Of a DNA stretch of 64,000 nucleotides, positions 12,299-61,499 are shown one piece after another. Below the pieces are notes generated by a model, which saw only the letters and a program-made list of their open reading frames with translations, had not been told where the DNA came from and did no database searches. The stretch is from an uncultured Actinomycetes bacterium. Its GTDB lineage: Bacteria > Actinomycetota > Actinomycetes > Streptosporangiales > Streptosporangiaceae. The stretch lies in assembly GCA_963808315.1 (NCBI GenBank), contig CAWEFK010000012.1:16274-80273 (forward strand), in the 5' to 3' direction. Position 1 is the first letter of the stretch. Each line of letters starts with the position of its first letter. Both the position numbers and the translations under genes were made by a program.

Positions 12299-13582
12299 AT
12301 GGGCGCGCAGTGCCCCTACGTCCTTGACACCACGGGTAAGGACGTCCACGCCGAGATCGCCCGGCTGCGGACCCAAGGGCCGGTGGCTCGTGTGGAGCTT
12401 CCCGGCGGGATACTCGCCTGGGAGGTGACCAGCTACGCGCTGGTAAAGCAGGTGCTGTCCGATCCCCGGTTCCAGAAGGATGCCAGGAAGCACTGGCCTA
12501 CTTACATCAACGGCCAGCTTCCGGACAAGTGGCCGCTGATTAACTGGGTGGAAATGGAAAACATGGAAACCCGGGACGGCGAAGATCACAACCGGCTGCG
12601 CCGCCTGATCTCAAAGGCGTTCACACCGCGCCGGGTCGAATCAACTCGGCCGCTCATTGAGAAGATTGCGGATGACTTGCTCGACGGCCTCGCCTCGACC
12701 CCGGCTGATCAGCCCGCGGACGTCAAGGGAGGGTACACCTTCCCGCTTCCCGCTTATGTCATCTGCGCTCTCTTCGGGGTACCGGAATCCGATCGAGACG
12801 CCGTACTCTATGGCGGCCAGGTCAACGCCAGCACGAATTACAGCGGCGAGGAGGTAGCGGCCAGCATCGAACAGTGGCACCAGGCCATGCAAGATCTAGT
12901 CGCCACCAAGCACCTGCAGTCCGCGAATGACCTCACTAGCGCGCTCATCGCGGCCAGGGAAGAAGACGGATCCCGGCTAACCGATGAGGAACTGGTCGGG
13001 ACACTGCACCTGATCCTGGGCGCTGGCTCGGAGACGGTGATGAATCTGCTCACGCACGCCGTCATCAAGCTACTTATCCATCCCGGCCAGCGTGAAAAAC
13101 TGATCAGCGGCGAGGTGGGCTGGGATTCGCTGTTTGACGAGACGATGCGAGTCGAATCACCGGTAGCCCAATTGCCATTCCGGTTCGCCGTGGAGGACGT
13201 CACCATCGGGGATGCCACGATCCGGAAGGGCGAGCCGGTGCTCGTCGGCTTCGCTGGCGCGGGACGCGATCCGGCTGTGCACGGTGACACCGCGGACGTC
13301 TTCGACATCACCCGGCCGAACAAGACGCATCTGTCGTTCGGCCATGGCACCCACTTCTGCCTGGGCGCGCCGCTCGCCCGGCTGGAGGTGGCGATCGCGC
13401 TGCCGCGTCTGTTCGAGCGCTTTCCTGACATGCAGCTGGCGGTGGCCCCCCAAGATCTGGAACCGCAGGGCACGTTCATCATGAACGGCCACGGCAAGCT
13501 GCCCATCTACCTGACGCCGGCTGCTGGACGCCAAGCTGGCCTGGCGCGAGCGACGGGGATGGCCCAGTTATTCAGGAGCTAG
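12299..13582 (+). CDS. Cytochrome P450, paralogue of 8808..10052
   Basis: ILGAGSETV, ETMR, FGHGTHFCLG. By eye it is collinear with the first P450 along its whole length. Confidence 0.95.
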   Translation: MGAQCPYVLDTTGKDVHAEIARLRTQGPVARVELPGGILAWEVTSYALVKQVLSDPRFQKDARKHWPTYINGQLPDKWPLINWVEMENMETRDGEDHNRLRRLISKAFTPRRVESTRPLIEKIADDLLDGLASTPADQPADVKGGYTFPLPAYVICALFGVPESDRDAVLYGGQVNASTNYSGEEVAASIEQWHQAMQDLVATKHLQSANDLTSALIAAREEDGSRLTDEELVGTLHLILGAGSETVMNLLTHAVIKLLIHPGQREKLISGEVGWDSLFDETMRVESPVAQLPFRFAVEDVTIGDATIRKGEPVLVGFAGAGRDPAVHGDTADVFDITRPNKTHLSFGHGTHFCLGAPLARLEVAIALPRLFERFPDMQLAVAPQDLEPQGTFIMNGHGKLPIYLTPAAGRQAGLARATGMAQLFRS

Positions 13583-13587
13583 CAATT

Positions 13588-13623
13588 ATGTACCTTGACG
13601 GTTACGTAACTAACTTGGTACAT
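13588..13623. promoter_or_regulatory. Palindromic operator-like site upstream of the ArsR gene
   Basis: ATGTACC (13588-94) and GGTACAT (13617-23) flank a perfect 10-bp palindrome GTTACGTAAC (13601-10) with 6-nt spacers on both sides. A TTGACG hexamer lies inside. The site ends 8 nt before the ArsR start. Confidence 0.4.
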
Positions 13624-13630
13624 TAATGCT

Positions 13631-13957
13631 ATGGAAGCCGCGCTGCGGGCACTGGCCGACGAGAGCCGGCGGACAATGCTTGAGACCTTGACCGGCGGTC
13701 CGGCCACTGCGGGTGAGCTGGCGGCGCTGCTGCCGATCGCCCGGCCCGGGGTATCGCGGCACCTGCGGGTGCTGCGGGAGGCGGGGCTGGTCGAGGTCCG
13801 CCGGGAGGGGCAGCGGCGGATCTACAGCCTCCGCCCGCAGCCGCTCGCCGAGATCGACCAATGGCTGGGTCGGTACCATTCCCTGTGGGAGCAGCGGCTG
13901 GATGCCCTGCACACCGAGATAGCCCGGCGCCAACACGAGCGAAGGAGCACCAGATGA
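13631..13957 (+). CDS. ArsR/SmtB-family transcriptional regulator
   Basis: LADESRRTMLETL...ATAGELAALLPIARPGVSRHLRVLREAGLV...REGQRRIYSL. Confidence 0.9.
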   Translation: MEAALRALADESRRTMLETLTGGPATAGELAALLPIARPGVSRHLRVLREAGLVEVRREGQRRIYSLRPQPLAEIDQWLGRYHSLWEQRLDALHTEIARRQHERRSTR

Positions 13958-14472
13958 CCGGCAACGCACAGGCGGGTACCCGCATCCTGGGCAGCCTGCG
14001 GTCAGCAGACGGCAAAGGCATCGTGCGCATGGAAGACCGCTTCGACACCGGGATCGACGACGTGTGGTCGGCCCTGACTGATCCCAGCCGTCTGGTCCGC
14101 TGGCTCGGAGAGGTGGAGGGCGACCTGCGCCAGGGCGGTGAGTACCGCTTCCACTTTTTCGCCACCGGATCCGAAGGCACCGGGCGGATAGAAGTGTGCG
14201 AGTCCCCGCGACGGCTGCTGCTGGCCCACGGTCTGGAGCAGCCGGACGTTAAGGTCATCGAGGCCGAGCTGACCGCCGACGGCGACCAGACCATCCTGGT
14301 CCTCGAGCAGCGCGGCTTGCCCGTGGACCTGCTCGCCGCCTACGGGACGGGCGTTCAGATTCATGTCGAAGACCTCGCCGCCCACCTGGCCGGGCGTGAG
14401 CGCTGCGACGCCGACGCGCGGTGGGACGAACTCGAACCTGCCTATCAGGGTCTCGTCGTCAGCACCGACTAG
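13954..14472 (+). CDS. SRPBCC / Aha1-domain protein (usual ArsR partner)
   Basis: ATG 13954 overlaps the ArsR stop (ATGA) and has GAAGGAG upstream. Sequence DDVWSALTDPSRLVRWLGEVEGDLRQGGEYRF. Frame of track ORF 13861..14472. Confidence 0.85.
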   Translation: MTGNAQAGTRILGSLRSADGKGIVRMEDRFDTGIDDVWSALTDPSRLVRWLGEVEGDLRQGGEYRFHFFATGSEGTGRIEVCESPRRLLLAHGLEQPDVKVIEAELTADGDQTILVLEQRGLPVDLLAAYGTGVQIHVEDLAAHLAGRERCDADARWDELEPAYQGLVVSTD

Positions 14473-14551: not shown

Positions 14552-15826
14552 CTACGCGGCTTGCCGATCGATGGCGCGGGCCAGCCCACCGATGGTGGGG
14601 TCGTTCATGAAGCTCTGCAGGCTCACTTCGATGTCGAAGCGCTCGGCGATCAGGGCCAGGAGAATGGTGCCAAGCAGGGAGTGCCCGCCTAGGTCGAAGA
14701 AGCTGTCCCCCACGCCCACCTGGTCCACCCCCAGCACCTCGGCGAACAGCTCTTGCAACAGGTGCTCGCGAGGCGACGAGGGCTCTGCCTCGCCCCGCCC
14801 GGCGCCGAAGTCCGGGGCCGGCAGCGCCCGCCGGTCCAGCTTGCCGTTCACCGTCAGCGGCAGCGCATCCAGCACCACCACCGCTGCCGGAACCATGTAC
14901 TCAGGCAGCACGCGCGACACCGCGTCCCGCACCCGTCCCGGAACGACCTCCTTCCCCGGCACCGGCACCGCGTAGGCGACCAGCCGCTGATCACCTGGCC
15001 GGTCCTCCCGCACCACCACCGCCGCTTGGCCCACCGCGTCCAGGCTCAGCAGCACCGTCTCGATCTCGCCTAGCTCGATCCGGAAACCCCGGATCTTCAC
15101 CTGATGATCGAGTCGGCCCAGGTACTCCAGCTCTCCCTGCCGGTTCCACCGGGCCAGGTCCCCCGACCGGTACATCCGCTCCCCCGGCTCTCCGAACGGG
15201 CACGCTACGAACCGTCCGGCAGTCAGGCCCGGCCGTCCCAGGTACCCCCGAGCCACTCCCACGCCGGCTACGTACAATTCCCCCGTCACCCCCGGCGGAA
15301 CCAGCTCGAGTCGTTCGTCCAGCACGAATATCCGCAGGTCCGGAAACGGCACCCCGATGACGCTAGCCGTATCGTCGGTAGCACCGTCTACGACGTAACC
15401 AGTAGAGTGCACCGTCGTCTCAGTGATCCCGTACATGTTCACCAGGACCGGCCTGTGGTCGAGCCCTTGACGCCACCGCGCCACCCGGGTGCAATCCAGC
15501 GCCTCTCCTGCGAACACCACGTACCGCACCGCGAGCTCGGGGCCGTCTCGCCAGCAGTCCATCAGCTGATAGAACGCTGACGGCGTCTGAGTCAAGATCG
15601 TGACCCGCTCAGCCGCCAGCAGCTGCCTGAATTCCGTCGGCGACCGACTGACCAGATACGGGACCACCAGGAGCCGGCCACCGGTCGACAGTGGCCCCCA
15701 CATCTCCCACACCGAAAGATCGAACGCGTCGGAATGGAACAACGTCCACGTATCGGCGGCCCCGGAGTCAACCCACGGGCTGGCCATCGCCACCAGGCGA
15801 ACCATGCTGCGATGCTCCACCACCAC
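14552..15826 (-). CDS. NRPS piece 6: A4 (from the A3 core motif onward) and terminal T4
   Basis: Extending the frame upstream gives [27 protein letters not shown]. It continues [75 protein letters not shown]. It ends 424 aa after the track start, with no release domain. Confidence 0.9.
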
Positions 15827-18405
15827 CCCCTTAGGCCTGCCCGTTGACCCGGAGGTGTAGATGACATACGCCGGATGGGCCGGAACAGCGGTGCCAGCCT
15901 GTCCGCGTCGGTCAGGTCAGTTGCGGGCAACCCGGCGATCACAGCCGCACCGGCCTCCTCGTCCCCCACGACCACACACGGGATGTCCCCGGCCGTATCG
16001 CTTATCGGCACCGCAGCATCACGAATCAGCAATGCCGGGCGCGCCTGGGCGAGGATGTAGTCGATGCGGTCTGGCGGGCTGTCGACGTCGACGGGGAGGT
16101 AGGCGGCTCCTGTTTTCAGTATTGCCAGCAGTGCCGCGACCAGGTCGGCGGAGCGGTCCATGGCGATCGCGACCAGGTGGCCGGGGCCGGCGCCGAGTGC
16201 GATCAGGTGCCGGGCGAGCTGGTTGGACTGCTCGTCCAGCTGCCGGTAGGTCAGTTCCCGCTCACCGCAGACCACGGCGACCGCGTCCGGTGTCCGGGCC
16301 GCCTGCGCCCCGAACAGGTCAGGCAGCGTCAGCTCCGGCACCTCCCGCACCGGACCGCTCCACTCCGACAGCACCTGCCGCCGCTCCGCGCCGGACATGA
16401 CCGTCAGGGCGCTGACCGGCCGGCCCGGATCCGCCGCCACCTGGCGCAGCAAACCCACGAGCCGGCCGACCAGGTCCTGGATGGTGTCCCGGTCGAACAG
16501 GTCGGTGGCGTATTCGAGGGTGAGGTCGATGCCGGCCGGCCTGCCGTCATCGTCGTCCCGCTGGGTATACCCGACCGTGATGTCGAACTTCGCGACCTGT
16601 AGCATGACCGGTTCGGCCTGGGCCAGGACTCCGCCCGCCTGCCAGTGTTCCGAGCCGGTGTCATCGGAGGCGATCATCACCTGGAACAGCGGGTGGCGCG
16701 ATGCTGACCGGGCCGGGTTGAGCACTTCCACCAGCCGCTCGAACGGCACGTCCTGGTTAGCGTAGGCAGCCAGGTCAGTTTCCCTGACCCGGGCCAGCAG
16801 CTGCGCGAAACTGGGATCACCGGACACGTCGGTCCGCAGCACCAGGGTGTTCACGAAAAAGCCCACGAGGTCGTCCAGCGCCTCATCCGAACGTCCCGCC
16901 GCCACCGATCCCAGCGGGATATCCGTCCCTGCCCCGAGCCGGGACAGCAACGCGGCCAGCCCAGCCTGCAGCACCATGAACAACGTCGCGCCATGATCGC
17001 GTGCCACGCCCAGCAGCCGCGCATGAAGCCCGGGCTCCAGCCGCACGCCGACCGCGTCTCCCCGGTAACTAGGCACGGCCTGCCGCGGCCGGTCCAGGGG
17101 CAGGGCCAGTTCTTCTGGCAGGCCGTCCAGGGCCTGCCGCCAGTAGCCCACCTGGCTGGACAAGATGCCGTCCGTCTCCTGATCCCCGCCGAGCAGGGCA
17201 CGCTGCCACATCGTGTAGTCGGCATACTGCACCGGCAGGTCCGCCCACCCCGGCGCCTGCCCGGCCAGCCGGGCCCCGAATGCCTCGGCCAGGTCCCGCA
17301 CCAAGATCCCCATCGACCAGCCGTCACTGGCAATGTGATGCATCAGGAGCACCAGCACGTGCTCCTCATCATCGACCGTGAACAGCCACCCGCGGACCGG
17401 CAACTCCCGCGCCAGATCGAAGATATGACCCGCCGCCCGCTCCATCAGCCCCGGCAAGCCAGCCCGGTCAGCACGCACCACGGTGAGCTCGGGCACCGCC
17501 GCCCCCGCATCCACCACATGCTGGTAAGGCTCACCGCCCGCCACCGGGAATACCGTCCGCAGCGACTCATGCCGCCCCGCCACATCCGCCAGCGCGGCCC
17601 GCATCGCGTCCGCGTCCACCCGCCCCCGCAGCCGCCACGCGAACGGGACGTTATATGTCGTGCTCGGACCATGCAGCGCGGTAATGAACCACAGCCGCTG
17701 CTGGGCGAACGACAGCGGCAACCGCTCCGGCCGCACCGTCGCCACCAGCGACGGCAGCGACGGCAGCGCAACCCCAGTCCCCTCCACCGCGGCAGCCAGC
17801 CCCGCCACCGTCGGATGCGCGAACACATCCCCGATCCCGACCTGCACCCCCAGCACCGACGCCACCTTGCTGACCAGCCGCATCGCCAGCAGGGAATGCC
17901 CGCCAAGGTCGAAGAAACTGTCCTGCGCCCCGACCCCGGCCACGCCCAGCACCTCCGCGAACAGCCCGCACAACACCTCCTCCCGCGGCGACGACGGCGC
18001 CACCCCGCCCCGCCCGGCACCGAACTCCGGCGCCGGCAGCGCCCGCCGGTCCAGCTTCCCGTTCACCGTCAGCGGTAGCGCATCCAGCACCACCACCACC
18101 GCCGGCACCATGTACTCCGGCAGGACCCGCCCCACCCCGGCACGCAACCCGGCACCATCCAGCTGACCGCCAGCCACCGGCACCACATACCCCGCCAGCC
18201 GCTGATCCCCCGGCCGGTCCTCCCGCACCACCACCGCCGCCCCGGCGACGCCGGGCTGGGCCGCCAGCACCGCCTCAACCTCCCCCAGCTCGATCCGGAA
18301 CCCCCGCACCTTCACCTGATCATCAGCCCGGCCCAGATACTCCAGCTCACCCCGCCGGTTCCACCGGGCCACATCCCCGGTCCGGTACATCCGCTCCCCC
18401 GGCAC
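15592..18405 (-). CDS. NRPS piece 5: A3 C-terminal part, T3, C4 and the N-terminal third of A4
   Basis: [39 protein letters not shown] ... [10 protein letters not shown] ... [10 protein letters not shown] ... [17 protein letters not shown] ... [11 protein letters not shown]. The frame is lost near 15880; the tail [16 protein letters not shown] is junk. Confidence 0.9.
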
Positions 18406-18594
18406 CCCCGAACGGGCACGCCACGAACCGCTCCCCGGTCAGCCCCGGCCGCCCCAGATACCCCCGCGCCAGCCCCGCACCCGCCACATACAACTCCCCC
18501 GCCACCCCCGGCGGCACCAACCCCAGCCCCTCATCCAGCACGAACACCCGCGTATTCGCGATAGGCCGCCCAATCGGCACCACCCCGTGGCCGG
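16051..18594 (-). repeat. NRPS module-scale repeat, copy A (2544 bp)
   Basis: Identical to 19246..21788 at an offset of 3195 bp, apart from a diverged hexamer near the left edge (about 16081-16086), 2 substitutions (near 16468 and 17085) and 1 extra G (18401). Eight antisense and sense track ORFs are duplicated with exactly this offset. Confidence 0.95.
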
Positions 18595-18784
18595 GAACCC
18601 GGTCATCTGGCCGTACCGGGTAGGAAACACAGCCGACCGTAGCCTCGGTCGGCCCGTACTCGTTGACTACCGTGAATCCTGGGTGGCCCAGCCGCCAGCC
18701 CTGCACATCCGAGCCTCGCACCGCCTCCCCGCCGAGCATGAGCTTCCCCGCTGGAGCGCACCGCAGCTGAGCCGCGGCGAGCAT
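18347..18784 (-). CDS. NRPS piece 4: A3 core from [12 protein letters not shown] to [10 protein letters not shown]
   Basis: [66 protein letters not shown]. The frame is lost at the extra G at 18401. Confidence 0.85.
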
Positions 18785-18875
18785 CGGCAGATGGCTGGGC
18801 GTGACGTCGATGAAGGGGAAAGTCGCCGAAGACCGGCGCAGGCGGCAGCTCGTCTTTGACCACTCCCATGCACAC
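18603..18875 (-). CDS. NRPS piece 3: short in-frame stretch of the A3 core (meaningful only about 18817-18955)
   Basis: In this frame [47 protein letters not shown] continues piece 2. It contains the A4 motif FDAAV. Confidence 0.7.
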
Positions 18876-21800
18876 GCACCCGCCGGTCAGCAGCGGCCCG
18901 TAGAGCGCCGCTACCGCCGCGTCGAAGGAGACCGGGGTGAGCTGCAGGGCCAGGCCGGCGCAATTGCGGATGTTCCGCGACGCACCAAGCCAGATAGTTC
19001 ACCAGGCTCGCGTGCTCGATCACGACGCCCTTTGGCTTGCCTGTCGATCCGGAGGTGTAGATGACATATGCCGGGTGGCCTGGGCTGAGCGGCATATGCC
19101 GGTCCGCGTCGGACAGACCGGCACCTGGGTACCTGGCGATCTTCTCGCGCGACCGGGCGTCATCCAGTACCACGGTGGCGGCGGCGGCGCGGCACAGACC
19201 GGCGTAGCGGATGGTGGTCAACGCGTACCCAGCCTCGGCATCTGTGAGGATGTAGTCGATGCGGTCTGGCGGGCTAGTCGCGTCGACGGGGAGGTAGGCG
19301 GCTCCTGTTTTCAGTATTGCCAGCAGTGCCGCGACCAGGTCGGCGGAGCGGTCCATGGCGATCGCGACCAGGTGGCCGGGGCCGGCGCCGAGTGCGATCA
19401 GGTGCCGGGCGAGCTGGTTGGACTGCTCGTCCAGCTGCCGGTAGGTCAGTTCCCGCTCACCGCAGACCACGGCGACCGCGTCCGGTGTCCGGGCCGCCTG
19501 CGCCCCGAACAGGTCAGGCAGCGTCAGCTCCGGCACCTCCCGCACCGGACCGCTCCACTCCGACAGCACCTGCCGCCGCTCCGCGCCGGACATGACCGTC
19601 AGGGCGCTGACCGGCCGGCCCGGATCCGCCGCCACCTGGCGCAGCAAACCCACGAGCCTGCCGACCAGGTCCTGGATGGTGTCCCGGTCGAACAGGTCGG
19701 TGGCGTATTCGAGGGTGAGGTCGATGCCGGCCGGCCTGCCGTCATCGTCGTCCCGCTGGGTATACCCGACCGTGATGTCGAACTTCGCGACCTGTAGCAT
19801 GACCGGTTCGGCCTGGGCCAGGACTCCGCCCGCCTGCCAGTGTTCCGAGCCGGTGTCATCGGAGGCGATCATCACCTGGAACAGCGGGTGGCGCGATGCT
19901 GACCGGGCCGGGTTGAGCACTTCCACCAGCCGCTCGAACGGCACGTCCTGGTTAGCGTAGGCAGCCAGGTCAGTTTCCCTGACCCGGGCCAGCAGCTGCG
20001 CGAAACTGGGATCACCGGACACGTCGGTCCGCAGCACCAGGGTGTTCACGAAAAAGCCCACGAGGTCGTCCAGCGCCTCATCCGAACGTCCCGCCGCCAC
20101 CGATCCCAGCGGGATATCCGTCCCTGCCCCGAGCCGGGACAGCAACGCGGCCAGCCCAGCCTGCAGCACCATGAACAACGTCGCGCCATGATCGCGTGCC
20201 ACGCCCAGCAGCCGCGCATGAAGCCCGGGCTCCAGCCGCACGCCGACCGCGTCTCCCCGGTAACTAGGCACGGCCGGCCGCGGCCGGTCCAGGGGCAGGG
20301 CCAGTTCTTCTGGCAGGCCGTCCAGGGCCTGCCGCCAGTAGCCCACCTGGCTGGACAAGATGCCGTCCGTCTCCTGATCCCCGCCGAGCAGGGCACGCTG
20401 CCACATCGTGTAGTCGGCATACTGCACCGGCAGGTCCGCCCACCCCGGCGCCTGCCCGGCCAGCCGGGCCCCGAATGCCTCGGCCAGGTCCCGCACCAAG
20501 ATCCCCATCGACCAGCCGTCACTGGCAATGTGATGCATCAGGAGCACCAGCACGTGCTCCTCATCATCGACCGTGAACAGCCACCCGCGGACCGGCAACT
20601 CCCGCGCCAGATCGAAGATATGACCCGCCGCCCGCTCCATCAGCCCCGGCAAGCCAGCCCGGTCAGCACGCACCACGGTGAGCTCGGGCACCGCCGCCCC
20701 CGCATCCACCACATGCTGGTAAGGCTCACCGCCCGCCACCGGGAATACCGTCCGCAGCGACTCATGCCGCCCCGCCACATCCGCCAGCGCGGCCCGCATC
20801 GCGTCCGCGTCCACCCGCCCCCGCAGCCGCCACGCGAACGGGACGTTATATGTCGTGCTCGGACCATGCAGCGCGGTAATGAACCACAGCCGCTGCTGGG
20901 CGAACGACAGCGGCAACCGCTCCGGCCGCACCGTCGCCACCAGCGACGGCAGCGACGGCAGCGCAACCCCAGTCCCCTCCACCGCGGCAGCCAGCCCCGC
21001 CACCGTCGGATGCGCGAACACATCCCCGATCCCGACCTGCACCCCCAGCACCGACGCCACCTTGCTGACCAGCCGCATCGCCAGCAGGGAATGCCCGCCA
21101 AGGTCGAAGAAACTGTCCTGCGCCCCGACCCCGGCCACGCCCAGCACCTCCGCGAACAGCCCGCACAACACCTCCTCCCGCGGCGACGACGGCGCCACCC
21201 CGCCCCGCCCGGCACCGAACTCCGGCGCCGGCAGCGCCCGCCGGTCCAGCTTCCCGTTCACCGTCAGCGGTAGCGCATCCAGCACCACCACCACCGCCGG
21301 CACCATGTACTCCGGCAGGACCCGCCCCACCCCGGCACGCAACCCGGCACCATCCAGCTGACCGCCAGCCACCGGCACCACATACCCCGCCAGCCGCTGA
21401 TCCCCCGGCCGGTCCTCCCGCACCACCACCGCCGCCCCGGCGACGCCGGGCTGGGCCGCCAGCACCGCCTCAACCTCCCCCAGCTCGATCCGGAACCCCC
21501 GCACCTTCACCTGATCATCAGCCCGGCCCAGATACTCCAGCTCACCCCGCCGGTTCCACCGGGCCACATCCCCGGTCCGGTACATCCGCTCCCCCGCACC
21601 CCCGAACGGGCACGCCACGAACCGCTCCCCGGTCAGCCCCGGCCGCCCCAGATACCCCCGCGCCAGCCCCGCACCCGCCACATACAACTCCCCCGCCACC
21701 CCCGGCGGCACCAACCCCAGCCCCTCATCCAGCACGAACACCCGCGTATTCGCGATAGGCCGCCCAATCGGCACCACCCCGTGGCCGGACAGCGGACCGC

Positions 21801-22773
21801 TAATCGTCGCGCAGATCGTGATCTCGGTTGGGCCATAGGCGTTGAACATCCGCCGGCCCCCCGACCAATCAGTTGCCAGCCGATCCGGACAGGCCTCGCC
21901 GCCCACGACCAGGCAATCCAGTCCCGCAACCGAGCTTGCTTGGATGCCTGTTAGCACGCTCGGGATGATCAGGGCATGGCTAATCCGCAGCTCGTCCACG
22001 GTACGCGCGAGAGTGTCGCCGACCAGCGGTCCTGGCTCGGGAATCACCAAGGTGGCCCCGGCAGGCAGCGCCATCAGCACCTCCATCACCGCGGCATCGA
22101 AGCTCGGGGAGGCTAGCTGAAGCACTCGCGATCCCGGCCCGATTCCGAACATGCTGGCCTGCGCACCGGACAAGCTCGCGAGGCCGCGGTGCGTGACCAC
22201 GACGCCCTTCGGCCTGCCGGTGGACCCCGAGGTGTAAATCACGTAGGCGGGGTGCGCGGACAGCAGCGGCGCGTGGCGCTCCGCGTCGGCCAGTGGCCTG
22301 CCGGGCTGCGCGCCGATCTCCGCGGCCGCCATCCGGTCGTCGAGCAGCACGCAGGGCGGGCTGGCCGCGGGCAGGCCCGCACCGGTAGCGGTATCGGATA
22401 GCAGCAGCACCGGCCGGGCGTCAGCCAGCACGAATGAGATCCGGGCCGACGGATAGCCGGGATCGACCGGCAGGTAGGCGGCACCCGTCTTGACGACCGC
22501 CAACGACGCGATCACCATCAGCTCGCTACGGCGCAACGCGATCGCGACCAGGTGGCCGGGGCCGGCGCCGAGTGCGATCAGGTGCCGGGCGAGCTGGTTG
22601 GACTGCTCGTCCAGCTGCCGGTAGGTCAGTTCCCGCTCACCGCAGACCACGGCGACCGCGTCCGGTGTCCGGGCCGCCTGCGCCCCGAACAGGTCAGGCA
22701 GCGTCAGCTCCGGCACCTCCCGCACCGGACCGCTCCACTCCGACAGCACCTGCCGCCGCTCCGCGCCGGACAT
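18667..22773 (-). CDS. NRPS piece 2: A2-T2-C3 and the N-terminal third of A3
   Basis: Track ORF of 1368 aa. It reads coherently from [13 protein letters not shown] to [28 protein letters not shown], then goes out of frame from about 18955 downward. Confidence 0.9.
19246..21788 (-). repeat. NRPS module-scale repeat, copy B (2543 bp)
   Basis: See copy A. It covers the A-domain part after NxYGPTE (from [17 protein letters not shown]), the T domain, the C domain, and the next A domain up to [11 protein letters not shown]. Confidence 0.95.
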
Positions 22774-22840
22774 GACCGTCAGGGCGCTGACCGGCCTGGC
22801 CCGGATCCGCCGCCACCTGGCGCAGCAAACCTACGAGCCG
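22538..22840 (-). repeat. Third, partial copy of the same repeat (C-A linker plus A1 motif region)
   Basis: Matches 16163..16464 and 19358..19659 nearly perfectly except for an inserted T at 22797. It encodes [14 protein letters not shown] / [79 protein letters not shown]. Confidence 0.9.
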
Positions 22841-25800
22841 CTGGCTCATGATCTCGGCTGTCAGCGGGTCGAACAGGTCAGCGGCGTACTCGAGAGAGCC
22901 TCGCATCCCCGCCGGGGCGCCGTCGGCTGTCAACTCCTCCCGGAAAATGAAAGAAAGGTCGAACTTCGCGGTCGCCGCATCGGTGCGCAACGCGGTCACG
23001 GGCACGTCGGGCAGCTCCAGCCTGGCATCCATGCCGCTTTCCAGATTCAGCACGACCTGGAACAGCGGACTGGAAGACCCAGTCCGAGCGGGGTTGACGA
23101 TTTCCACGACCTGCTCGAACGGCACGTCCTGGTGCGCGAATGCCGCCAGATCGGCCTCGCGTACCTGAGCGAGCAGTGCGCTGAAGGCCGGGTCATCCGC
23201 CACTTCAACCCGCAGGACCAGCGTGTTGACGAAGAACCCGATCAGGTCATCCAGCGCCTGATCACCCCGGCCAGCGACCGGTACGCCGACCGGGATATCG
23301 GCACCAGCCCCCAGCTTGAACAGCAGCACGGTCAGCGCGGCGTGCAGCACCATGAACACTGTCGTGCCGGAACCCCTGGCCAGCGCCTGCAGCTGACCGT
23401 GGAGCCCGGCATCCACCTCTATCCCGGCAACTCCACCGCGGTAGCTGGGCACCGCGGGCCGTGGCCGGTCCGCCGGCAGCGATATCTGGTCGGGAAGACC
23501 CGCCAACGCGGCCCGCCAGAATTCCGCATGACCCGCCAGTACCCCGCTCGCTGACAGCTCCCGCTGCCACAGCGTGTAATCGGCGTACTGCAGCGGCAGC
23601 GCTGGCCATGACGGCGGGACGCCGGCGCACCGTGCGGTGTACGCACCCGACAGGTCGCGAAGCAGCGGCCCCATCGACCACTCGTCCATCGCGACGTGGT
23701 GCAGCAGTACCACCAGGACATGGTCCTCGGCAGTAAGTTCGAACAGCCAGGCCCGCACCGGCAGCTCCGCCGAGAGGTCGAAGAGATAACGAGATGCGGC
23801 GGAGACAGACGCGGCCAGCTCATCTTCGGTGACCGCGGTTACATCAAGCACCGGGCACGCCGCCGGGCCGTCGAGGATCAGCTGGAAAGGATCCCCGTCG
23901 GCATCGGGGAAAACGGTGCGCAAGCTCTCGTGGCGGCTGGCCACATCGGCCAGCGCTAGCCTCAGCGCCTCGCTGTCCACCGGACCCGACAGCCGCCACG
24001 CCAGCGGAATGTTGTAGGTGGTGCTCGGTCCTTCGAACTGGTGCAGGAACCAAAGCCTGCTCTGGGCATACGACAATGGCAGCGGGTCTGGCCTGAGCAC
24101 TGGCGCCAGCACCGACCGCGGCGCCGCCACGGCGCTAGCTAGCAGCCCGTCCAGCCCGGCGACGGTCGGGGCGGTAAACACAGCCCGGATATCCGTCTCA
24201 CTGCCGAGCACCGAGCGGATCCGGCTGACCAGCTGCATGGCCAGCAGCGAGTTGCCGCCAAGGTCGAAGAAGCTGTCGTCGATCCCGGCTTCTGGAACGC
24301 CAAGTACCTCGGCGAACAGCCCGCACAACACCTCCTCCTGAGGCGACCGCGGCCTCCGGCCCGACACCATGGCACCATAGTCGGGAGCGGGCAGGGCGCT
24401 CCTGTCCAGTTTTCCGCTGGGAGACAACGGGAATGATGCCACCGGCATGAAGATCGGCGGCACCATGTAATCGGGTACCCTCGCCGCCACATATGCCCGG
24501 AGTTCTCTTAGGTCAAAGGTCGTGTCAGACAGTACGACGTAAGCAGCCAGCCGCTTGTCACCTGGCCGGTCTTCCCTGACCACCACCACCGCGCGATCCA
24601 CCAGCGGGTGACGCGCCAGCACCGCCTCGATCTCTCCCAGCTCGATGCGGAACCCCCGCACCTTCACCTGAGCGTCAACCCGTCCCAGGAACTCCACGGT
24701 GCCATCGCGCCAGTACCGCGCCATGTCACCCGTCCGGTACCACCGCAGCCCGCCGTGCGTGACGAACCTCTCCGCGGTAAGTGCCCGGTTCCCCCGGTAG
24801 CCCTCGGCGACTCCGGCACCGCCGATCCAGAGCTCGCCAGCGGTAAGGTCCGGGCAATCGTGACCTGATCCATCGACGACACGGAAGTACTGATTCGCCA
24901 GCGGCCGCCCGTATGGCACAGAACGCCATTCCGGCGGAACGTCCTTCACTTCCTGGAGGTTCGACCAGATCGATGCTTCCGTCGCACCGCCGAGCGCCGC
25001 GAAGCGGGCGCCCGGATTCAGCCTAGCCAGGCGAGGAGGCAGGTCAAGGCCGACCCAGTCGCCAGACGCGAGCACGAATCGCAGGCTGGCGAGTCGGCTC
25101 TCACCTTCCGCGGCCGTGAGAAGCATCTCGAAGAGCGCTGGCACCGAGTTCCATACGGTGACGCCTTGCTCTTCGATGAGATTCAGCCACTGCCGAGGAT
25201 CCCGCCGGTTAACCTCGCCGATAAGCACCACCGCGCCACCAGCGGTAAGCAAGCCGAACATGTCATACACAGACAAGTCGAAATCAATGGACGATAGTGC
25301 GAGAACCCGGTCACCGGCAGTTACGTCAAACCTGCTGTTGATCTCCGCGATGGTGTTCATCGCCGCGCCGTGAGTGATTTCGACACCCTTTGGTTCTCCG
25401 GTGGAACCGGAGGTGAAAATCACGTACGCCAGCTCGTCTGACCGGACCTGAGCCGGCTCGGGCAGTTCCTGGGCGGCCAGCGCGGCTGGAACAGTGGCCA
25501 CCGTGAACTCCGCTGCCCAGCCTTCCTGAGTCTCCGCCAGCGCGACTCGGGCACCGGAGAGCCGCGTCATCAGGGCGCGACGCGACTCCGGCTGGTCCAC
25601 CGAGATAGGCACGTACACGGCACCGCAGGCCAGTACGCCCAGGATGGCCATGACCTGTTCAATCCCTCTGGGCAGTGACACCACTACCGCGTCGCCGCGC
25701 CGGACTCCTGCCTCCCGGAGGTAGCCCGCTATCCGCAAGGCACCGGAAGCGAGCTCCCCGTAGGTTACCCGGCGATCCTGGCCGTAGACCGCGGCCAGGC

Positions 25801-26692
25801 GTGACGGGCAGGCGGCAGCATGACGGAAGAAGCCGCCGTGGAGCACATCAGCAGAGCTCGCCGCGGTCCCCGCGCCGGCCGTGCGCCACTCGGCGATCCG
25901 CTCCTTCTCATGCGTCAGCAAAATGTCGATCCCGGAAACGCGCAGGCACGGGTCGCCGGCCACCGACTCAAGCAGCCGGACCAGCCGGACGGCCATGGCC
26001 TGGACCGTTTCCCGGTCGAACAAGTCGCGGGCGAAGTCCAGCGAGCCAGCGATCCCGCCCGGCCGGCCATCGCTCCCGGACCGCTCCGCCAGGATGAAAG
26101 CCAGATCGGACCTGGCCACCCCCTCAGCGGCCGGGCCGCCCCGGACGTCCAGGCCTGACGGCGCGGCTCCGGCCGTCAGCATCACCTGGAACAGCGGGTG
26201 GCGCGATGCTGAGCGGGCCGGGTTGAGCACTTCCACCAGCCGTTCGAACGGCACGTCCTGGTTAGCGTAGGCAGCCAGGTCAGTTTCCCTGACCCGGGCC
26301 AGCAGCTGCTCAAAACTGGGATCACCTGACACGTCGGTCCGCAGCACCAGCATGTTCACGAACCCAGACCGCCCCGCCGTCACCGTTCCTAGCGGAATGT
26401 CCGTCCCGGCCCCCATGCGACACAGCAGCGCGGCGAGACCGGCCTGCAGCACCATGAACAAGGTCGCGTCATGTTCGCGGGCGACGTCGAGCAGCCGGAC
26501 GTGGAGTCCCGGCTCCAGTCGCAGATTGACCGCCTTCCCCCGGTCACTGGCGACGGCCGGCCGTGGCCGGTCCGCCGGGAGGGCCAGCTCGTCCGGCAGG
26601 GCGGCTAGGGTCTGCCGCCAGTGATCAAGCTGCGCCTCCTCCCGCGACGAAGACGGCTCCATGCCATCGTGTCCGGCACTGAACTGACCCAT
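22694..26692 (-). CDS. NRPS piece 1: C-terminal lobe of a C domain (no HHxxxDG), A1, T1, C2
   Basis: Starts [10 protein letters not shown] with GGGAG upstream. Approximate domain spans: remnant C lobe 25915-26692, A1 24383-25840, T1 serine near 24250, and C2 [10 protein letters not shown] near 23701. The last ~30 codons ([13 protein letters not shown]...) are out of frame after 22797. Confidence 0.9.
26181..26362 (-). repeat. Fourth, short copy (C-domain C-lobe segment) inside the truncated N-terminal C remnant
   Basis: 182 bp, about 97% identical by eye to 16676..16857 and 19871..20052 (ATCACCTGGAACAGCGGGTGGCGCGATGCTGA...). Confidence 0.85.
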
Positions 26693-26751: not shown

Positions 26752-28125
26752 CTAAAGCTTCCGCCACTCCCCGTCGGGATCCTGCACCCCGCCCGAGAGG
26801 ATGCGGGAGTACGCCGACACCCAGCCGGTCACGGTAGCCAGGTCGAAATCATCGAGATTGAACCGTATGGTGCCGGTCAGCACACCAGAGGACAGCAAAT
26901 CCATGTCCCAGGTGGAACCGTTGGCGAGGTCCACGCTCTCGGCCTCATGCTCCACGATCTCGCCGCGCACCTCGTACGCGCCATCGCCTAGTTCAATTTC
27001 CGAGTCACCAACCCGTGGCTGAGGCATCGAGAAGACTGTCTTACACCGCATTGGGTCAGCCAGCGGCGCCATGAGATTTGGGGCCTCTTGTTCGATGAGC
27101 ATCGTCGGGATCTCATGAGAATATGCGTCAAGACAGGTCCGGCGAGTACGCGTTAGTACATCCCGGAAGGTGACGCAATCGTCGAAGGTGGTCCGCAGCG
27201 GGAGCGGGCTCGCTATCGCCCCGACAAGATTGTGAGTCCTCGGATCGGTTCGGCCGGCGTAGAAAGTGTTGACGACAGGATCGGTCGTTCCGCTGATCTT
27301 GTGGGTCAGCACATTGAAGGTCGCAAGCAAGACCATGAATAGAGAGGACCGGGTAGCCGTGGAGAGCCCGGTGATCTCCGCCGTCACCCCGGCGTCGATA
27401 GTAAAGTAGTACGCGGAGTAGGACCGGGAATGCGGTCCGGAAAACGGATGATCGGACGGCAACGTGAATATTTGCCCCCCGCTCAGCTTCTCCCTCCAGT
27501 ACTTCCGCGCGACATCTGCGTCCTGACCCGCGCTGCGCGCTTGCTCCCAAGCTACGAGTTCCCGGTACTGCGGCGCGTCCGGCAAGTCCACCCGGGACCC
27601 GGTGGTCCGCGCCTTGTAGAAGGCTGCCAGGTCGCGCATGATGATCTCCATGGACCACCCGTCCGCGGCCGAGTGGTGACTGCTCACGACGAGCACAGAA
27701 TCCTGGTCATCGAAACGGTGCAGCTCCGCTCGCAGGAGCGGGAGGGCACGGACGTCCATGCCGTGTCGCGCCACGCCGACAATGATCTCCTGGGCACGTA
27801 CGTCGCGCGATTTCCCGCCGACCTGCGGCAGCTCGTGGACCTCAAGCGCGGCCGGAGCGGGCGGGAACACTTCCTGGTACCTGGGCCGGGCATCCCGCAC
27901 CACGATGGTCCGGAGGATCTCATGCCGCCGAACCACATCGTCCAGGGCGCCGCGAAGGGCCGCGACGTGCACCTGCCCGGAAATGCGCACCGCCATTTCC
28001 GACGTGAATAGCCGCCCGAACCGCCCGTCCCGATCACCCGCAATCCCAGCGCAGAACCACTCCTGGGTACCGGACAGCGGAAACCGGTTCGAAGCTGTCA
28101 GCGGAGCGTCAGGAAGTTCGGTCAT
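26752..28125 (-). CDS. Stand-alone NRPS condensation-domain protein
   Basis: 457 aa with SHHSAADGWSMEIIMRDL (HHxxxDG) and C-domain-like length and order. Its stop lies 59 nt upstream of the NRPS start. GC is visibly lower than in the NRPS. Confidence 0.85.
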   Translation of the reverse strand: MTELPDAPLTASNRFPLSGTQEWFCAGIAGDRDGRFGRLFTSEMAVRISGQVHVAALRGALDDVVRRHEILRTIVVRDARPRYQEVFPPAPAALEVHELPQVGGKSRDVRAQEIIVGVARHGMDVRALPLLRAELHRFDDQDSVLVVSSHHSAADGWSMEIIMRDLAAFYKARTTGSRVDLPDAPQYRELVAWEQARSAGQDADVARKYWREKLSGGQIFTLPSDHPFSGPHSRSYSAYYFTIDAGVTAEITGLSTATRSSLFMVLLATFNVLTHKISGTTDPVVNTFYAGRTDPRTHNLVGAIASPLPLRTTFDDCVTFRDVLTRTRRTCLDAYSHEIPTMLIEQEAPNLMAPLADPMRCKTVFSMPQPRVGDSEIELGDGAYEVRGEIVEHEAESVDLANGSTWDMDLLSSGVLTGTIRFNLDDFDLATVTGWVSAYSRILSGGVQDPDGEWRKL

Positions 28126-37254: not shown

Positions 37255-37880
37255 CTTCCGCGATCAGCTCCGGGGTCGCGCGGACTGTTCTGGTAGAGCG
37301 TGATGGGCGTCTTGTGCCCCGGGTGCAGGCACTGCGGACGCGCCTGTGCTGATTGGCCGGGTTACGAAATCCGTATGCCAGGCGGGCCTCGAGCTTGGCG
37401 AGCCGGTTCAGGCTCTCGGAGGCGGCGTTCGTGATCCCGGCCAGGACCGCGCAGACGATCTCGTCCTCCCACCGGGAGATGGTCCGGGCGAGGCTGACCA
37501 GCTCGGGGATGTCGTCGTTGCTGGCGCACCAGTCGTAGAAGGCGTACAGCCGGTCCCTGACGTTGCGCTCGCACGGGACCGAGCCGGTGACGGGCGCGCA
37601 GGTTCAGCGCGTGGCGGAGTTTCTCCTTGCCGATCCAGGCGGCGGCGATCTCCGGCCCGGCCGGATCGGCCTGCAGGGTACTGGTGACCCTGGCGAACTG
37701 GGCGGGTGACAGGTGCTCCGGGTTCCGCACCAGCAGGTTCTTGATGCCGTACTCGGGGTCACCGGACCGGCCGCGGCGGCCGTATCGGTAGCACTCTTCT
37801 CGAATTATAGGAACAAGGCACCCGATGGCCTCGTGAGCCTTTACCGCGCTACTCACCACGATTACTGGTCGCCATTGCAT
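37255..37880 (-). mobile_element. ISL3-family transposase remnant (C-terminal half only, internal frame shift near 37555)
   Basis: RRGRSGDPEYGIKNLLVRNPEHLSPAQ...AAAWIGKEKLRHALNL, then in a second frame RLYAFYDWCASNDDIPELVSLARTISRWEDEIVCAVLAGITNAASESLNRLAKLEARLAYGFRNPANQHRRVR. There is no N-terminal half and I recognised no inverted repeats. Confidence 0.7.
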
Positions 37881-60411: not shown

Positions 60412-61499
60412 CCCACCCCGGTGCCCGCGTTCGCCGCGGTGTTGATCCAGGTGGTCGCCTCGCTCCCGCCGGCGCTGGCCGTTGATCCGGTCCGCGCTGA
60501 GGTAGCTGAGCACGAGCACCGGGGCGATGGCGGCGCCGGTCAGAGCCATGACGACGCCGAGGACAAGCAGGTCGGGCGTGACCACGGACCCGGCCACCCC
60601 GGCCGCCATCACGAGCAGTAGCCCGGTCAGCTGGACGGACGGCCGGACAGGCACACGCAGCCTGCCCCACAGCAGACCGCCAACCGCGCTGCCCAGCCCC
60701 AGGGCGGCCAGGACGTACCCGGCCGCCGCGGCATCGTGGTCCTGGACGGCGCGGGCGGCGATGGTGACGTCGATGGCCCCGAAGCCGAGCGACGTCGTCA
60801 GCACGACGGTGAGCAGCGCGGGAAAACCGGGTCTGCGGAGCGGACCGGCCCACCGGCGACGGGGCACGGTGACCGCAGGTGGCTGGCGGTGGTGGGGGCG
60901 GTGACCGTTGGTGAGGCGGCCAACGCCACGCTCCCGGTCAGCAGCAGGGCGGCCGTGACGGCCAGCGCGAGGACGGGGCCGTCCAGGGCGACCAGGGCCC
61001 CGGCCAGGAGCGGGCCGAGGGTGAAGAGCAGCTCTTCAGGCGCGGTGTCGAGGCCGTACGCACGCCGCAGGCTGCCCGGGCCGACGGCGATGACCGCCCA
61101 CACGGCCCGCATCGCCGCGCCCAGCACTGGTCCCGTGGCGCCGGCCAGCCCGGCCGCCGCAACGTACCCGGCCGGGCTGCGGTCGCCGGCGCGATCCAGA
61201 ACGACCATCGCCACCAGGGCCGCGGCCGACCCGGCGGCAAAGGCCGGCAGGACCCGCCGCTGGCCGTAACGGTCAGCGAGCCGGGATTTGGCCGGTCCGG
61301 TCAGTGTCCCCAGCGCGTAGCAGCCGCTCGCGGCGCCAGCGGCGGCGAAGGACCCGGTGGCCTGGTGCACGACGAGCAGCAGGGATAGGCCGATAGTTCC
61401 GTAGGCCAGGCGGCCGAGGCTGGCGGCGGTGAATGAGCGCAGTGCGCCAGGCAGGCTGAGCACCGCACGGTACGACAAAGCCGGTTGCGGACGAGACAT
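60294..61499 (-). pseudogene. MFS transporter, two frame shifts (about 60862-60885 and about 60490)
   Basis: Three consecutive frames give MSRPQPALSYRAVLSLPGALRSF...RLADRYGQRR, then PRRRWAGPLRRPGFPALLTVVLTTSLGFGAIDV, then TWINTAANAGTGVGYALTGLAVDRVGSGPPMLAGAAVLLGTIVIVIDLPPRL-stop. Confidence 0.75.

What the first reader, a model, noticed from the sequence alone, without database searches (positions are those of the whole stretch)
16051..21788. In-frame 3195-bp-period duplication inside the NRPS that spares only the specificity-conferring A-domain core
Seen: 16051..18594 and 19246..21788 are identical except for a diverged hexamer near the left edge, two substitutions and one extra G. They are offset by 3195 bp (1065 codons, one module). 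The shared block runs from just after the NxYGPTE motif of one A domain ([17 protein letters not shown]), through A6-A10, the T domain and the whole C domain, into the next A domain up to [11 protein letters not shown]. The intervening unique pieces (18595..19245 for A3, 14552..16050 for A4, 21789..22537 for A2) contain the A3-A5 core motifs and all visible Stachelhaus positions 235-331. Shorter copies of the same block occur at 22538..22840 and 26181..26362. Inference: either very recent module duplication followed by replacement of only the A-core subdomain, or ongoing gene conversion that homogenises everything except the substrate pocket. This would be a natural counterpart of engineered A-subdomain swaps. 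Alternative: the repeats are an assembly artefact.
Basis: partly seen in the sequence, partly recalled or inferred. Interest (0 to 1): 0.7.

Follow-up and report, generated by a model that had tools for sequence, protein, structure and literature searches.

The report
Homogenised NRPS modules with divergent specificity cores
Two neighbouring modules of a four-module peptide-synthetase gene share a 2.5-kb stretch that is 99.8% identical, while the short segments that choose the amino acid stay different; this pattern of internal gene conversion plus swapped specificity cores is already documented, so the case is clean but not new.

Summary
Window 16051-18594 and 19246-21788 differ by a 5-nt patch, two substitutions and one 1-nt indel. 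Identity falls to about 45% at both edges.

The block lies on the minus strand in a C*-A1-T-C-A2-T-C-A3-T-C-A4-T NRPS. It runs from about 17 residues after A5 (NxYGPTE), through A6-A10, T and C, to 14 residues past the A2 motif. All nine variable Stachelhaus positions fall in the unique cores, which give four different codes.

Independent short-read contigs of the same strain and of a 92-93% relative support three of the four block/core junctions directly and the fourth only indirectly, and they break exactly one k-mer into the repeats.

In the relative, module 4 exists, but 300 nt of its C domain are only 79% identical to the window. Homogenisation therefore post-dates the module. That favours gene conversion over a fresh duplication.

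The block also meets the published GRINS definition: strong, correlated GC/TA skew and 70% G at third codon positions.

Similar indels occur in unrelated genes, so they are probably consensus errors.

Acore swaps with these boundaries and concerted evolution of modules are both published. This is a new member of a known kind.

The parts
14552..26692 (-). NRPS gene: truncated C, then A1-T1-C2-A2-T2-C3-A3-T3-C4-A4-T4, with no TE domain. It reads as one 4045-aa ORF only after five single-nucleotide corrections.
   Evidence: Pfam on the ORF pieces; frame map; five edits give 12138 nt, 4045 aa and no internal stop, against 55 stops uncorrected
19246..21788 (-). Block X, copy 1: A2 domain after A5 (A6-A10), T2, C3, and the A3 N-terminus through motif A2 plus 14 residues.
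   Evidence: GC skew 0.22 and TA skew 0.24, r=0.79
16051..18594 (-). Block X, copy 2: A3 domain after A5 (A6-A10), T3, C4, and the A4 N-terminus through motif A2 plus 14 residues.
21789..22537 (-). Unique A2 core (A2 motif region to 17 residues past GPTE). Stachelhaus code DAMLVGAIC.
   Evidence: orthologue in L083
18595..19245 (-). Unique A3 core. Stachelhaus code DAADMGEVG. It contains two of the 1-nt insertions.
   Evidence: homologous cores in L085/L086 (70/65% aa)
15336..16050 (-). Unique A4 core. Stachelhaus code DLWTVAMVH. It contains a 1-nt deletion.
   Evidence: orthologue P0260/L087 at 94% aa
14555..15335 (-). A4 A6-A10 plus terminal T4. About 80% identical to the start of block X, so not homogenised.
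22538..22842 (-). Short converted tract (end of C2, C-A linker, A2 N-terminus). Identical to the end of block X apart from one substitution and one extra base.
   Evidence: also present in relative L083 (about 97%)
26180..26362 (-). Older converted tract in the truncated N-terminal C domain. 96% identical to 16675-16857 and 19870-20052, flanked by about 79%.
   Evidence: the same-strain Illumina contig L001 ends 30 nt into its 66-nt exact core
22786..22807 (-). Frameshift 1: GGGCCAGGCCGG. The relative has GGGCCA-GCCGG and copies U3/U4 have GGGCCG-GCCGG.
18951..18973 (-). Frameshift 2: +1 nt in the A3 core relative to L085/L086.
18805..18826 (-). Frameshift 3: +1 nt next to a C4 run on the coding strand (TTTCCCCTTC) in the A3 core, relative to L085/L086.
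18394..18418 (-). One extra base in GGGGGTGCCGGGGG inside block X copy 2.
15877..15899 (-). Frameshift 5: -1 nt in the A4 core. The window reads GCTGTT-CCGG; orthologue L087 reads GCTGTTGTCGG.
26752..28125 (-). Stand-alone full-length condensation-domain protein just upstream of the NRPS.
   Evidence: Pfam profile positions 27-441 of 456; conserved in L001, L083 and L084

Best explanation
The region is a four-module NRPS gene in which two adjacent inter-core blocks are kept almost identical by recent intragenic gene conversion (concerted evolution). Each block spans A6-A10, T, C and the next A domain's N-terminus up to just past motif A2. The intervening A-domain cores (motif A2 to between A5 and A6) are unrelated in sequence and carry different specificity codes.

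The most likely history has three steps.
1. An older module gain.
2. Acquisition of different A cores by recombination. This created sharp junctions at the A2 and A5/A6 positions.
3. Repeated non-reciprocal copying between the still-homologous flanks. Copying stops mechanically where homology ends, at the core edges, so the specificity pockets are spared.

Shown: the anatomy, the junction positions, the post-speciation overwriting of part of C4, and the nucleotide skew. The blocks meet the operational definition of GRINS (long intra-synthase repeats with intense, correlated GC/TA skew and G/T-recoded codons), a repeat class associated with gene conversion in assembly-line synthases.

Inferred: the order of events, that heterology rather than selection sets the tract ends, and that the five 1-nt indels breaking the ORF are consensus errors rather than real lesions.
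For: - Near-identity with abrupt edges.
- Edges mapped to A-domain motifs, with all nine variable Stachelhaus positions in the unique cores and four different codes.
- Isolated short converted tracts in module 2 (22538-22842, identical) and module 1 (26180-26362, 96%), with flanks at 60-80%. A single duplication cannot produce these.
- Orthologue test. Relative contig L087 (sample 3300086466) is 92% identical over module 4. It is 99% at 16731-16631, about 79% at 16631-16331 and 96% at 16331-16051, whereas the window's two paralogous copies are 100% identical there. Paralogues are therefore closer than orthologues, and module 4 pre-dates the homogenisation.
- The core-to-block junction pre-dates the split. 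Relative contig L083 ends exactly 127 nt (one assembler k-mer) into the block, and its first base matches the A3-side junction.
- Different pairs have different tract ends on the A2-motif side (22537/22538 vs 16050/16051).
- GRINS criteria: length over 500 bp, over 80% identity, mean |GC skew| 0.22 and |TA skew| 0.24 (threshold 0.15), r=0.79, G3=0.70 in the first 1.2 kb against about 0.4 elsewhere. The skew jumps at the same nucleotide window as identity. The cores are at 0.06/0.13. Definition in PMC8256042.
- Published precedent for the same exchange unit (A2 to A5/A6) and for concerted evolution in NRPS: PMC9205934, PMC8097286, PMC4256081.
Against: - The relative's own module-3 copy of the block was not recovered, so the direction of the C4 replacement (window converted, or relative replaced) is inferred from parsimony only.
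- The full tandem arrangement with two 99.8% copies exists only in this one contig.
- No donor for any core was identified. The nearest A3-like cores are 65-70% aa.
- The gene as assembled is broken by five indels. If these are real, the synthetase is non-functional and selection arguments do not apply.
- Part of the GC skew is imposed by Gly-rich protein motifs: the A1 equivalent reaches 0.33 GC skew but shows no TA skew.
Confidence: 0.75

Rival explanations
1. A very recent tandem duplication of one 3.2-kb module unit, followed by replacement of one A core. The identity of the two blocks would then be left over from the duplication itself, not from gene conversion.
For: The period is a whole number of codons. 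More distant relatives L085/L086 end their NRPS after the A3-like module, so module number does vary in this family.
Against: Module 4, with the same A4 core and the same block-to-core junction, already exists in a relative that is 7-8% diverged, while the two blocks differ by only 0.1-0.2%. Part of that relative's C4 is 21% different from the window's block. The A4 tail is only 80% identical to the block start, although a fresh duplication would have copied it too. Short isolated tracts in modules 1 and 2 need conversion anyway.
Confidence: 0.12
2. Assembly artefact: the tandem arrangement or the near-identity is produced by the assembler, through a strain chimera, a duplicated collapse, or polishing that copied one module over the other.
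For: The contig is an unnamed 94.9-kb NCBI record, probably a metagenome-assembled genome. It carries 1-nt indel errors in several genes. Three of the copy-specific differences look like consensus problems at sites where copies differ. The complete arrangement is seen in this contig only.
Against: Three of the four core/block junctions are seen directly in independent assemblies, and the fourth only indirectly. A2core-to-X is in L083. X-to-A4core plus downstream genes is in L087. X-to-A3core is spanned only by homologous, non-duplicated sequence in L085/L086. A3core-to-X has that same support plus the G at the 18595-equivalent in the last 127-mer of L083. Short-read contigs of the same strain (L001) and of the relative (L083) stop exactly k-1 or k nucleotides into the shared sequence, as expected if the repeats exist in the reads. 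Three different, well-formed A cores sit between the copies.
Confidence: 0.07
3. The five frameshifts are real and the NRPS is a freshly inactivated pseudogene. The repeat structure is then a relic without current function.
For: Five 1-nt indels fall in 12 kb of NRPS against about four or five in the other 52 kb. Only one lies in a homopolymer of four or more bases.
Against: Five edits restore a 4045-aa ORF with every catalytic motif intact and no other lesion. Orthologous ORFs in the relative are unbroken at two of the sites. Homologues L085/L086 are unbroken at the three A3 sites. The same kind of indel breaks PrpD-family, acyl-CoA dehydrogenase and MFS transporter genes elsewhere in the window. 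The three A3 insertions sum to +3.
Confidence: 0.25

Closest known systems
Natural Acore subdomain exchange in NRPS adenylation domains (Baunach et al. 2021, PMC8097286; Booth et al. 2022, wollamide/desotamide, PMC9205934; the hormaomycin and microcystin cases cited there)
   Same: A sharp drop of identity is confined to the A core. The C-A linker, the Asub and the Asub-T interface are retained. In Booth et al. the recombinant region lies 'between motif A2 and motifs A5 and A6', the same boundaries as here. All pocket residues except Lys517 are exchanged.
   Different: Here the contrast is between adjacent modules of one gene, with 99.8% identical 2.5-kb flanks on both sides of a core, not between orthologous clusters. 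No donor sequence was identified.
Concerted evolution (intragenic gene conversion) of assembly-line modules (Medema et al. 2014, PMC4256081; syringopeptin NRPS and mycolactone PKS are named there as extreme cases)
   Same: Paralogous domains within one synthase are more alike than orthologues. The model in that paper states that diverged segments escape homogenisation through reduced recombination or through selection.
   Different: The evidence here is at nucleotide resolution, with a 92-93% relative showing which segment was overwritten. Only two of the four modules are in the homogenised set.
[quoted passage not shown] 2021, PMC8256042)
   Same: All operational criteria are met: over 500 bp, over 80% identical to another region of the same synthase, mean |GC| and |TA| skew above 0.15, and correlated skews (r=0.79 here; 0.70 reported for GRINS). 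G/T-rich recoding of codons and association with gene conversion also match.
   Different: GRINS were defined and surveyed in assembly-line PKS genes. In NRPS modules they are only mentioned in passing, for hybrid clusters. Here the element spans Asub-T-C-A(N) of a pure NRPS, and its skew begins exactly at the A-core junction.
Engineered A-subdomain swaps (Crusemann 2013 and Kries 2015, as cited in PMC8097286) and A-domain substitution (Calcott 2020, PMC7486941)
   Same: Exchange of the pocket-bearing part of the A domain while the neighbouring interfaces are kept.
   Different: According to PMC8097286 the engineered units were smaller (flavodoxin-like subdomain or pocket only). The natural unit here is larger, about 217-250 residues from just after A2 to between A5 and A6.

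Membership tests
Modular (type I) NRPS | Repeating C-A-T modules with Condensation, AMP-binding, AMP-binding_C and PP-binding domains | tested here: met
   Pfam hits on all ORF pieces. The corrected 4045-aa protein shows HHxxxDG in C2-C4, A3/A5/A10 motifs, and GGxS in four T domains.
Modular (type I) NRPS | A single uninterrupted reading frame, or a set of docking subunits | tested here: inconclusive
   As assembled, the gene has five 1-nt indels. They are probably consensus errors, because orthologues are intact and similar indels occur in unrelated genes.
Natural Acore subdomain exchange | The identity break is confined to the A core, with the C-A linker and Asub-T retained | tested here: met
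   The breaks lie 14 residues after motif A2 and about 17 residues after GPTE (A5).
Natural Acore subdomain exchange | The exchanged unit carries the specificity-conferring residues and changes the predicted substrate | tested here: met
   Positions 235-331 all lie in the unique cores. The codes are DAMLVGAIC, DAADMGEVG and DLWTVAMVH. The substrates themselves were not determined.
Natural Acore subdomain exchange | An identifiable donor A domain for the exchanged core | tested here: not met
   The best A3-core relatives are 58-71% aa. The A4 core has only its orthologue (94%) and then relatives at 68% or less. No donor was found in the window.
Concerted evolution / gene conversion | Paralogous segments within the genome are more similar to each other than to their orthologues in a close relative | tested here: met
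   Over window 16331-16631 the paralogue is 100% identical and orthologue L087 about 79%. Over 16051-16331 the figures are 100% and 96%.
Concerted evolution / gene conversion | Patchy tracts with differing end points among copies | tested here: met
   There are tracts of 2544, 305 and 183 nt with different ends.
GRINS | A duplicated region over 500 bp with over 80% identity to another region of the same synthase | tested here: met
   2544 nt at 99.8%.
GRINS | Mean absolute GC and TA skews above 0.15 (150-nt windows, 30-nt step), with the two skews correlated | tested here: met
   0.22 and 0.24, r=0.79. Outside the NRPS the values are 0.085 and 0.131. 15 of 80 block windows exceed 0.3 on both skews, against 7 of 1715 outside.
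GRINS | Located in an assembly-line PKS (the family in which the element was defined) | tested here: not met
   The host is a pure NRPS with no PKS domains in the gene. The source paper notes some GRINS in NRPS modules and in other gene families.

The most novel reading that the evidence does not exclude
The block is an active GRINS-type element in a pure NRPS. On this reading it is a G/T-recoded repeat that spreads between modules by biased gene conversion and halts at the heterologous A cores. It would then both define natural A2-to-A5/A6 exchange-unit boundaries and supply 2.5-kb homology arms that let cores and whole modules be gained, lost or reshuffled quickly within a population. The terminal A3-like module in L085/L086 would be one outcome of that process.
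Probability: 0.3. Interest if true: 0.55.

Novelty: new member of a known kind. Interest (0 to 1): 0.35.

Why it matters
This is a clean natural example, resolved to the nucleotide, of where an NRPS tolerates exchange of its specificity core. The core runs from just after '...AYLPVD[12 protein letters not shown]' to just before '[10 protein letters not shown]...', and the same Asub-T-C-A(N) scaffold serves three different cores. That supports the larger A2-to-A5/A6 exchange unit argued for from comparative work, and it gives concrete fusion points for engineering this family.

It also shows that the nucleotide-skewed, conversion-prone repeats described for polyketide synthases occur in a pure NRPS and end exactly at the A-core edge. 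That link has hardly been examined for NRPS.

The case does not change current understanding. Both the swap pattern and concerted evolution are published.

Tried and rejected
- Orthologous clusters in species-representative genomes: the genome-contig scan with the module-1/C2 protein gave nothing above 48% aa, so no orthologue was found there.
- Exact look-up of the window's NRPS products: only module 1 (P0001) and the A4 tail (P0261) are in the protein collection, with no record name.
- P0002 (58% identity) turned out to be an unrelated dimodular NRPS.
- The protein search with the A3 core found no copy above 71%. The A3 core of the same strain or of the 93% relative could therefore not be checked independently. 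The metagenome scan returned only two more distant homologues, L085 and L086. They were still useful for placing the indels.
- A crude GC3 phase plot failed to detect even the known frameshifts and was dropped. A codon-usage Viterbi decoder replaced it and recovered all five. Most of its other frame switches are ordinary adjacent genes. Only those where one Pfam domain spans the junction were counted.
- Purifying selection as the cause of the identity was rejected, because synonymous sites are identical too.
- The upstream stand-alone C protein as the missing N-terminal half of the truncated first C domain was rejected, because it is itself a full-length C domain.

Full report
**1. Observation**

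A self-comparison of 12-30 kb finds direct repeats with a period of about 3.2 kb. A MAFFT alignment of the two long copies with 400-nt flanks shows that 16051-18594 and 19246-21788 differ at only four places:
- a 5-nt patch (16081-85 GTCGA vs 19276-80 AGTCG);
- a substitution at 16464/19659;
- a substitution at 17081/20276;
- one extra base at 18401.

Identity in 50-nt windows falls from 1.00 to 0.3-0.5 immediately outside both ends. BLASTN gives 99.8% over 2545 columns. In the coding frame the patch changes VD to AT. One substitution is synonymous and the other is Gln/Pro. 22538-22842 is identical to the block end apart from one substitution and one extra base. 26180-26362 is 96% identical to 16675-16857. 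Chance cannot produce this.

**2. Anatomy**

The repeats lie in an NRPS on the minus strand, running from 26692 down to 14555. Pfam on the open segments gives a partial C, then A1-T1-C2, A2-T2-C3-A3(N), an A3 fragment, A3(C)-T3-C4-A4(N), and A4-T4. A stand-alone full C-domain gene (26752-28125) and an MFS transporter gene lie upstream.

In protein orientation each block starts at [17 protein letters not shown], about 17 residues after the GPTE of motif A5. It runs through A6-A10, the T domain and the whole C domain. It ends at ...[11 protein letters not shown][12 protein letters not shown], 14 residues past motif A2.

I aligned the four cores to the GrsA Phe-A segment. That reference sequence is recalled from memory, and its DAWTIAAIC read-out matches the published code. 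The alignment places positions 235-331 entirely inside the unique pieces. The codes are:
- A1: DLYNLSLIW (the classical Cys code);
- A2: DAMLVGAIC;
- A3: DAADMGEVG;
- A4: DLWTVAMVH.

A module-by-module identity table shows a mosaic rather than uniform homogenisation:
- U3 vs U4 is 1.00 across the block and about 0.45 in the cores.
- U2 matches U3/U4 at 1.00 only over the 305-nt tract, and at 0.55-0.70 in C2 and T1.
- U1 matches at 0.75-0.82 only over the C-terminal part of its C remnant.
- The A4 tail (A6-A10 and T4) is 0.66-0.89 identical to the block start.

**3. The gene as assembled is broken**

The coding frame changes five times. Homologues locate each change:

| Site (window) | Change | Reference |
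|---|---|---|
| ~22798 | extra base: GGGCCAGGCCGG, vs GGGCCA-GCCGG in the 93% relative and GGGCCG-GCCGG in U3/U4 | |
| ~18960 | +1 nt in A3 | L085/L086, |
| ~18815 | +1 nt in A3 | L085/L086, |
| ~15885 | -1 nt in A4 | orthologue L087, |

Five single-nucleotide edits restore one 4045-aa ORF with no stop, against 55 in-frame stops without them.

A codon-usage Viterbi decoder recovers all five sites and flags further frame switches elsewhere. In four of those cases a single Pfam domain spans the switch:
- a MmgE/PrpD-family gene near 787;
- an acyl-CoA dehydrogenase near 2573;
- an MFS transporter near 60819;
- an ISL3 transposase fragment near 37591.

The contig therefore carries scattered 1-nt indels in unrelated genes. 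I conclude that the NRPS indels are more likely consensus errors than real lesions (about 75:25). They are about four times denser in the NRPS than elsewhere, and this cannot be settled without reads.

**4. Is the repeat an artefact?**

The window is an unnamed 94,870-bp NCBI contig. No orthologue above 48% aa exists in the species-representative genomes. Four independent assemblies bear on the question.
- L001 is a Logan assembly of Illumina run ERR11594400. It is 99.98% identical to 31198-26280 with no gap. It ends 30 nt (k-1 for k=31) into the 66-nt exact core of the 26180-26362 tract.
- L083 (JGI sample 3300086466) is 93% identical to 29606-21663. There the NRPS ORF is unbroken for 1678 aa. 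The contig ends exactly 127 nt into the block, which is one assembler k-mer. Its first shared base (G) matches the A3-side junction rather than the A2-side one, which indicates a second path into the block in that organism.
- L087 comes from the same sample and encodes P0260, 725 aa, unbroken. It covers 16731-14532 and the downstream genes to 6347, so it carries the block-to-A4-core junction.
- L085 and L086 are soil metagenome contigs. They align collinearly at 83% and 78% across 19480-17888, over both A3 junctions.

So A2core-to-X and X-to-A4core are seen directly in the relative. X-to-A3core is spanned only by homologous, non-duplicated sequence. A3core-to-X has that support plus the G in the last 127-mer of L083. 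Short-read assemblies break where repeats predict. The complete tandem arrangement is still seen only in this contig, so I leave about 7% for an artefact.

**5. Duplication or conversion?**

Three observations favour conversion.

First, isolated tracts of 305 nt and 183 nt in modules 2 and 1, flanked by 60-80% identity, need non-reciprocal transfer.

Second, module 4 with the same A4 core exists in the relative at 92% overall. Its identity to the window is 99% at 16731-16631, about 79% at 16631-16331, 96% at 16331-16051 and 90-96% in the core. The 79% segment matches nothing else in the window or in L083. In the window this segment is identical between C3 and C4. So paralogues are closer than orthologues, and the module is older than the identity.

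Third, the A4 tail is only 80% identical to the block start, which a fresh duplication would not leave.

L085/L086 end their NRPS after the A3-like module, followed directly by the P450 homologue of 12299-13582. Module number therefore varies in the family, by gain in this lineage or by deletion between homologous Asub-T segments in theirs.

The likeliest account is old module gain and core replacement, followed by continuing conversion of the flanks that stops where homology ends. The relative's own C3 copy was not recovered, so the direction of the C4 replacement is inferred.

**6. An extra property: nucleotide skew**

The composition table already showed strong skew over 16-22 kb. In 150-nt windows on the coding strand, both block copies have mean |GC skew| 0.22 and |TA skew| 0.24, with r=0.79. 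The A2 and A3 cores are at 0.06/0.13-0.14. The window outside the NRPS is at 0.085/0.131.

Third codon positions in the first 1.2 kb of the block are 70% G, with G3/(G3+C3)=0.80 against about 0.5 in other genes. Skew jumps from about 0.1 to 0.35-0.48 within the windows that cross the core-to-block boundary. The homologous Asub-T regions of L085/L086 are skewed as well (0.29-0.31 GC, 0.25 TA), while their cores are not. The equivalent region of module 1 shows some GC skew but no TA skew.

These values meet the operational definition of GRINS: over 500 bp, over 80% identity within the synthase, both mean skews above 0.15, and correlated skews (PMC8256042). That paper defined GRINS in polyketide synthases and mentions NRPS modules only in passing.

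**7. Comparison with what is known**

[quoted passage not shown] Booth et al. place a recombinant region 'between the conserved motif A2 and motifs A5 and A6' and say the pattern is frequent (PMC9205934). Medema et al. describe concerted evolution of NRPS/PKS domains and a model in which diverged segments escape homogenisation (PMC4256081). The finding is therefore a new, unusually sharp example of known processes. Its added feature is a GRINS-type skew in a pure NRPS that begins at the core junction.

**8. Verdict**

But the pattern is already known, not 'everything' is homogenised, and the ORF as assembled is broken.
- Novelty: new member of a known kind.
- Interest: 0.35.

Noticed in passing
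window ~787, ~2573, ~60819 (possibly ~60460), ~37591: Single-nucleotide frameshifts occur outside the NRPS. In each case one Pfam domain (MmgE/PrpD_N, Acyl-CoA_dh_1, MFS_1, DDE_Tnp_ISL3) spans a frame switch. This suggests the contig carries scattered indel consensus errors.
   Followed up: partly
window 25900-26692 (-) and 26752-28125 (-): The NRPS starts with only the C-terminal subdomain of a condensation domain (Pfam profile 188-455 of 456, no HHxxxDG). A separate full-length C-domain gene precedes it. The arrangement is conserved in relative L083.
   Followed up: partly
window 14552-14560 and downstream, 13616-14472 (+): The NRPS ends in a T domain, with no thioesterase or reductase. The adjacent genes are an HTH regulator and an AHSA1/SRPBCC protein, followed by P450, gluconolactonase-like, epoxide-hydrolase-like and P450 genes. 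The release mechanism is unknown.
   Followed up: no
window 24900-25500 (-): A1 has the classical cysteine code DLYNLSLIW and a non-canonical A5 motif ([12 protein letters not shown] instead of NxYGPTE). No cyclisation-type C domain was noted.
   Followed up: no
L085 1-1704 and L086 1-1578 vs window 19480-17888 and 15358-14556: In two soil-metagenome homologues the A3-like module is the last module (T, stop, then the P450 homologue). This NRPS family therefore varies in module number. L085 also resembles the A4 copy rather than the A3 copy just upstream of motif A3, which is another sign of mosaicism.
   Followed up: partly
window 37379-37860 (-): An ISL3-family transposase fragment lies about 10 kb from the cluster edge.
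   Followed up: no
L087 10455-12178 vs window below 6347: Synteny with the 90%-identical relative ends at window 6347. Beyond that point the relative carries another A-T didomain gene, whereas the window has an aldehyde dehydrogenase, a CoA-transferase and an acyl-CoA dehydrogenase.
   Followed up: no
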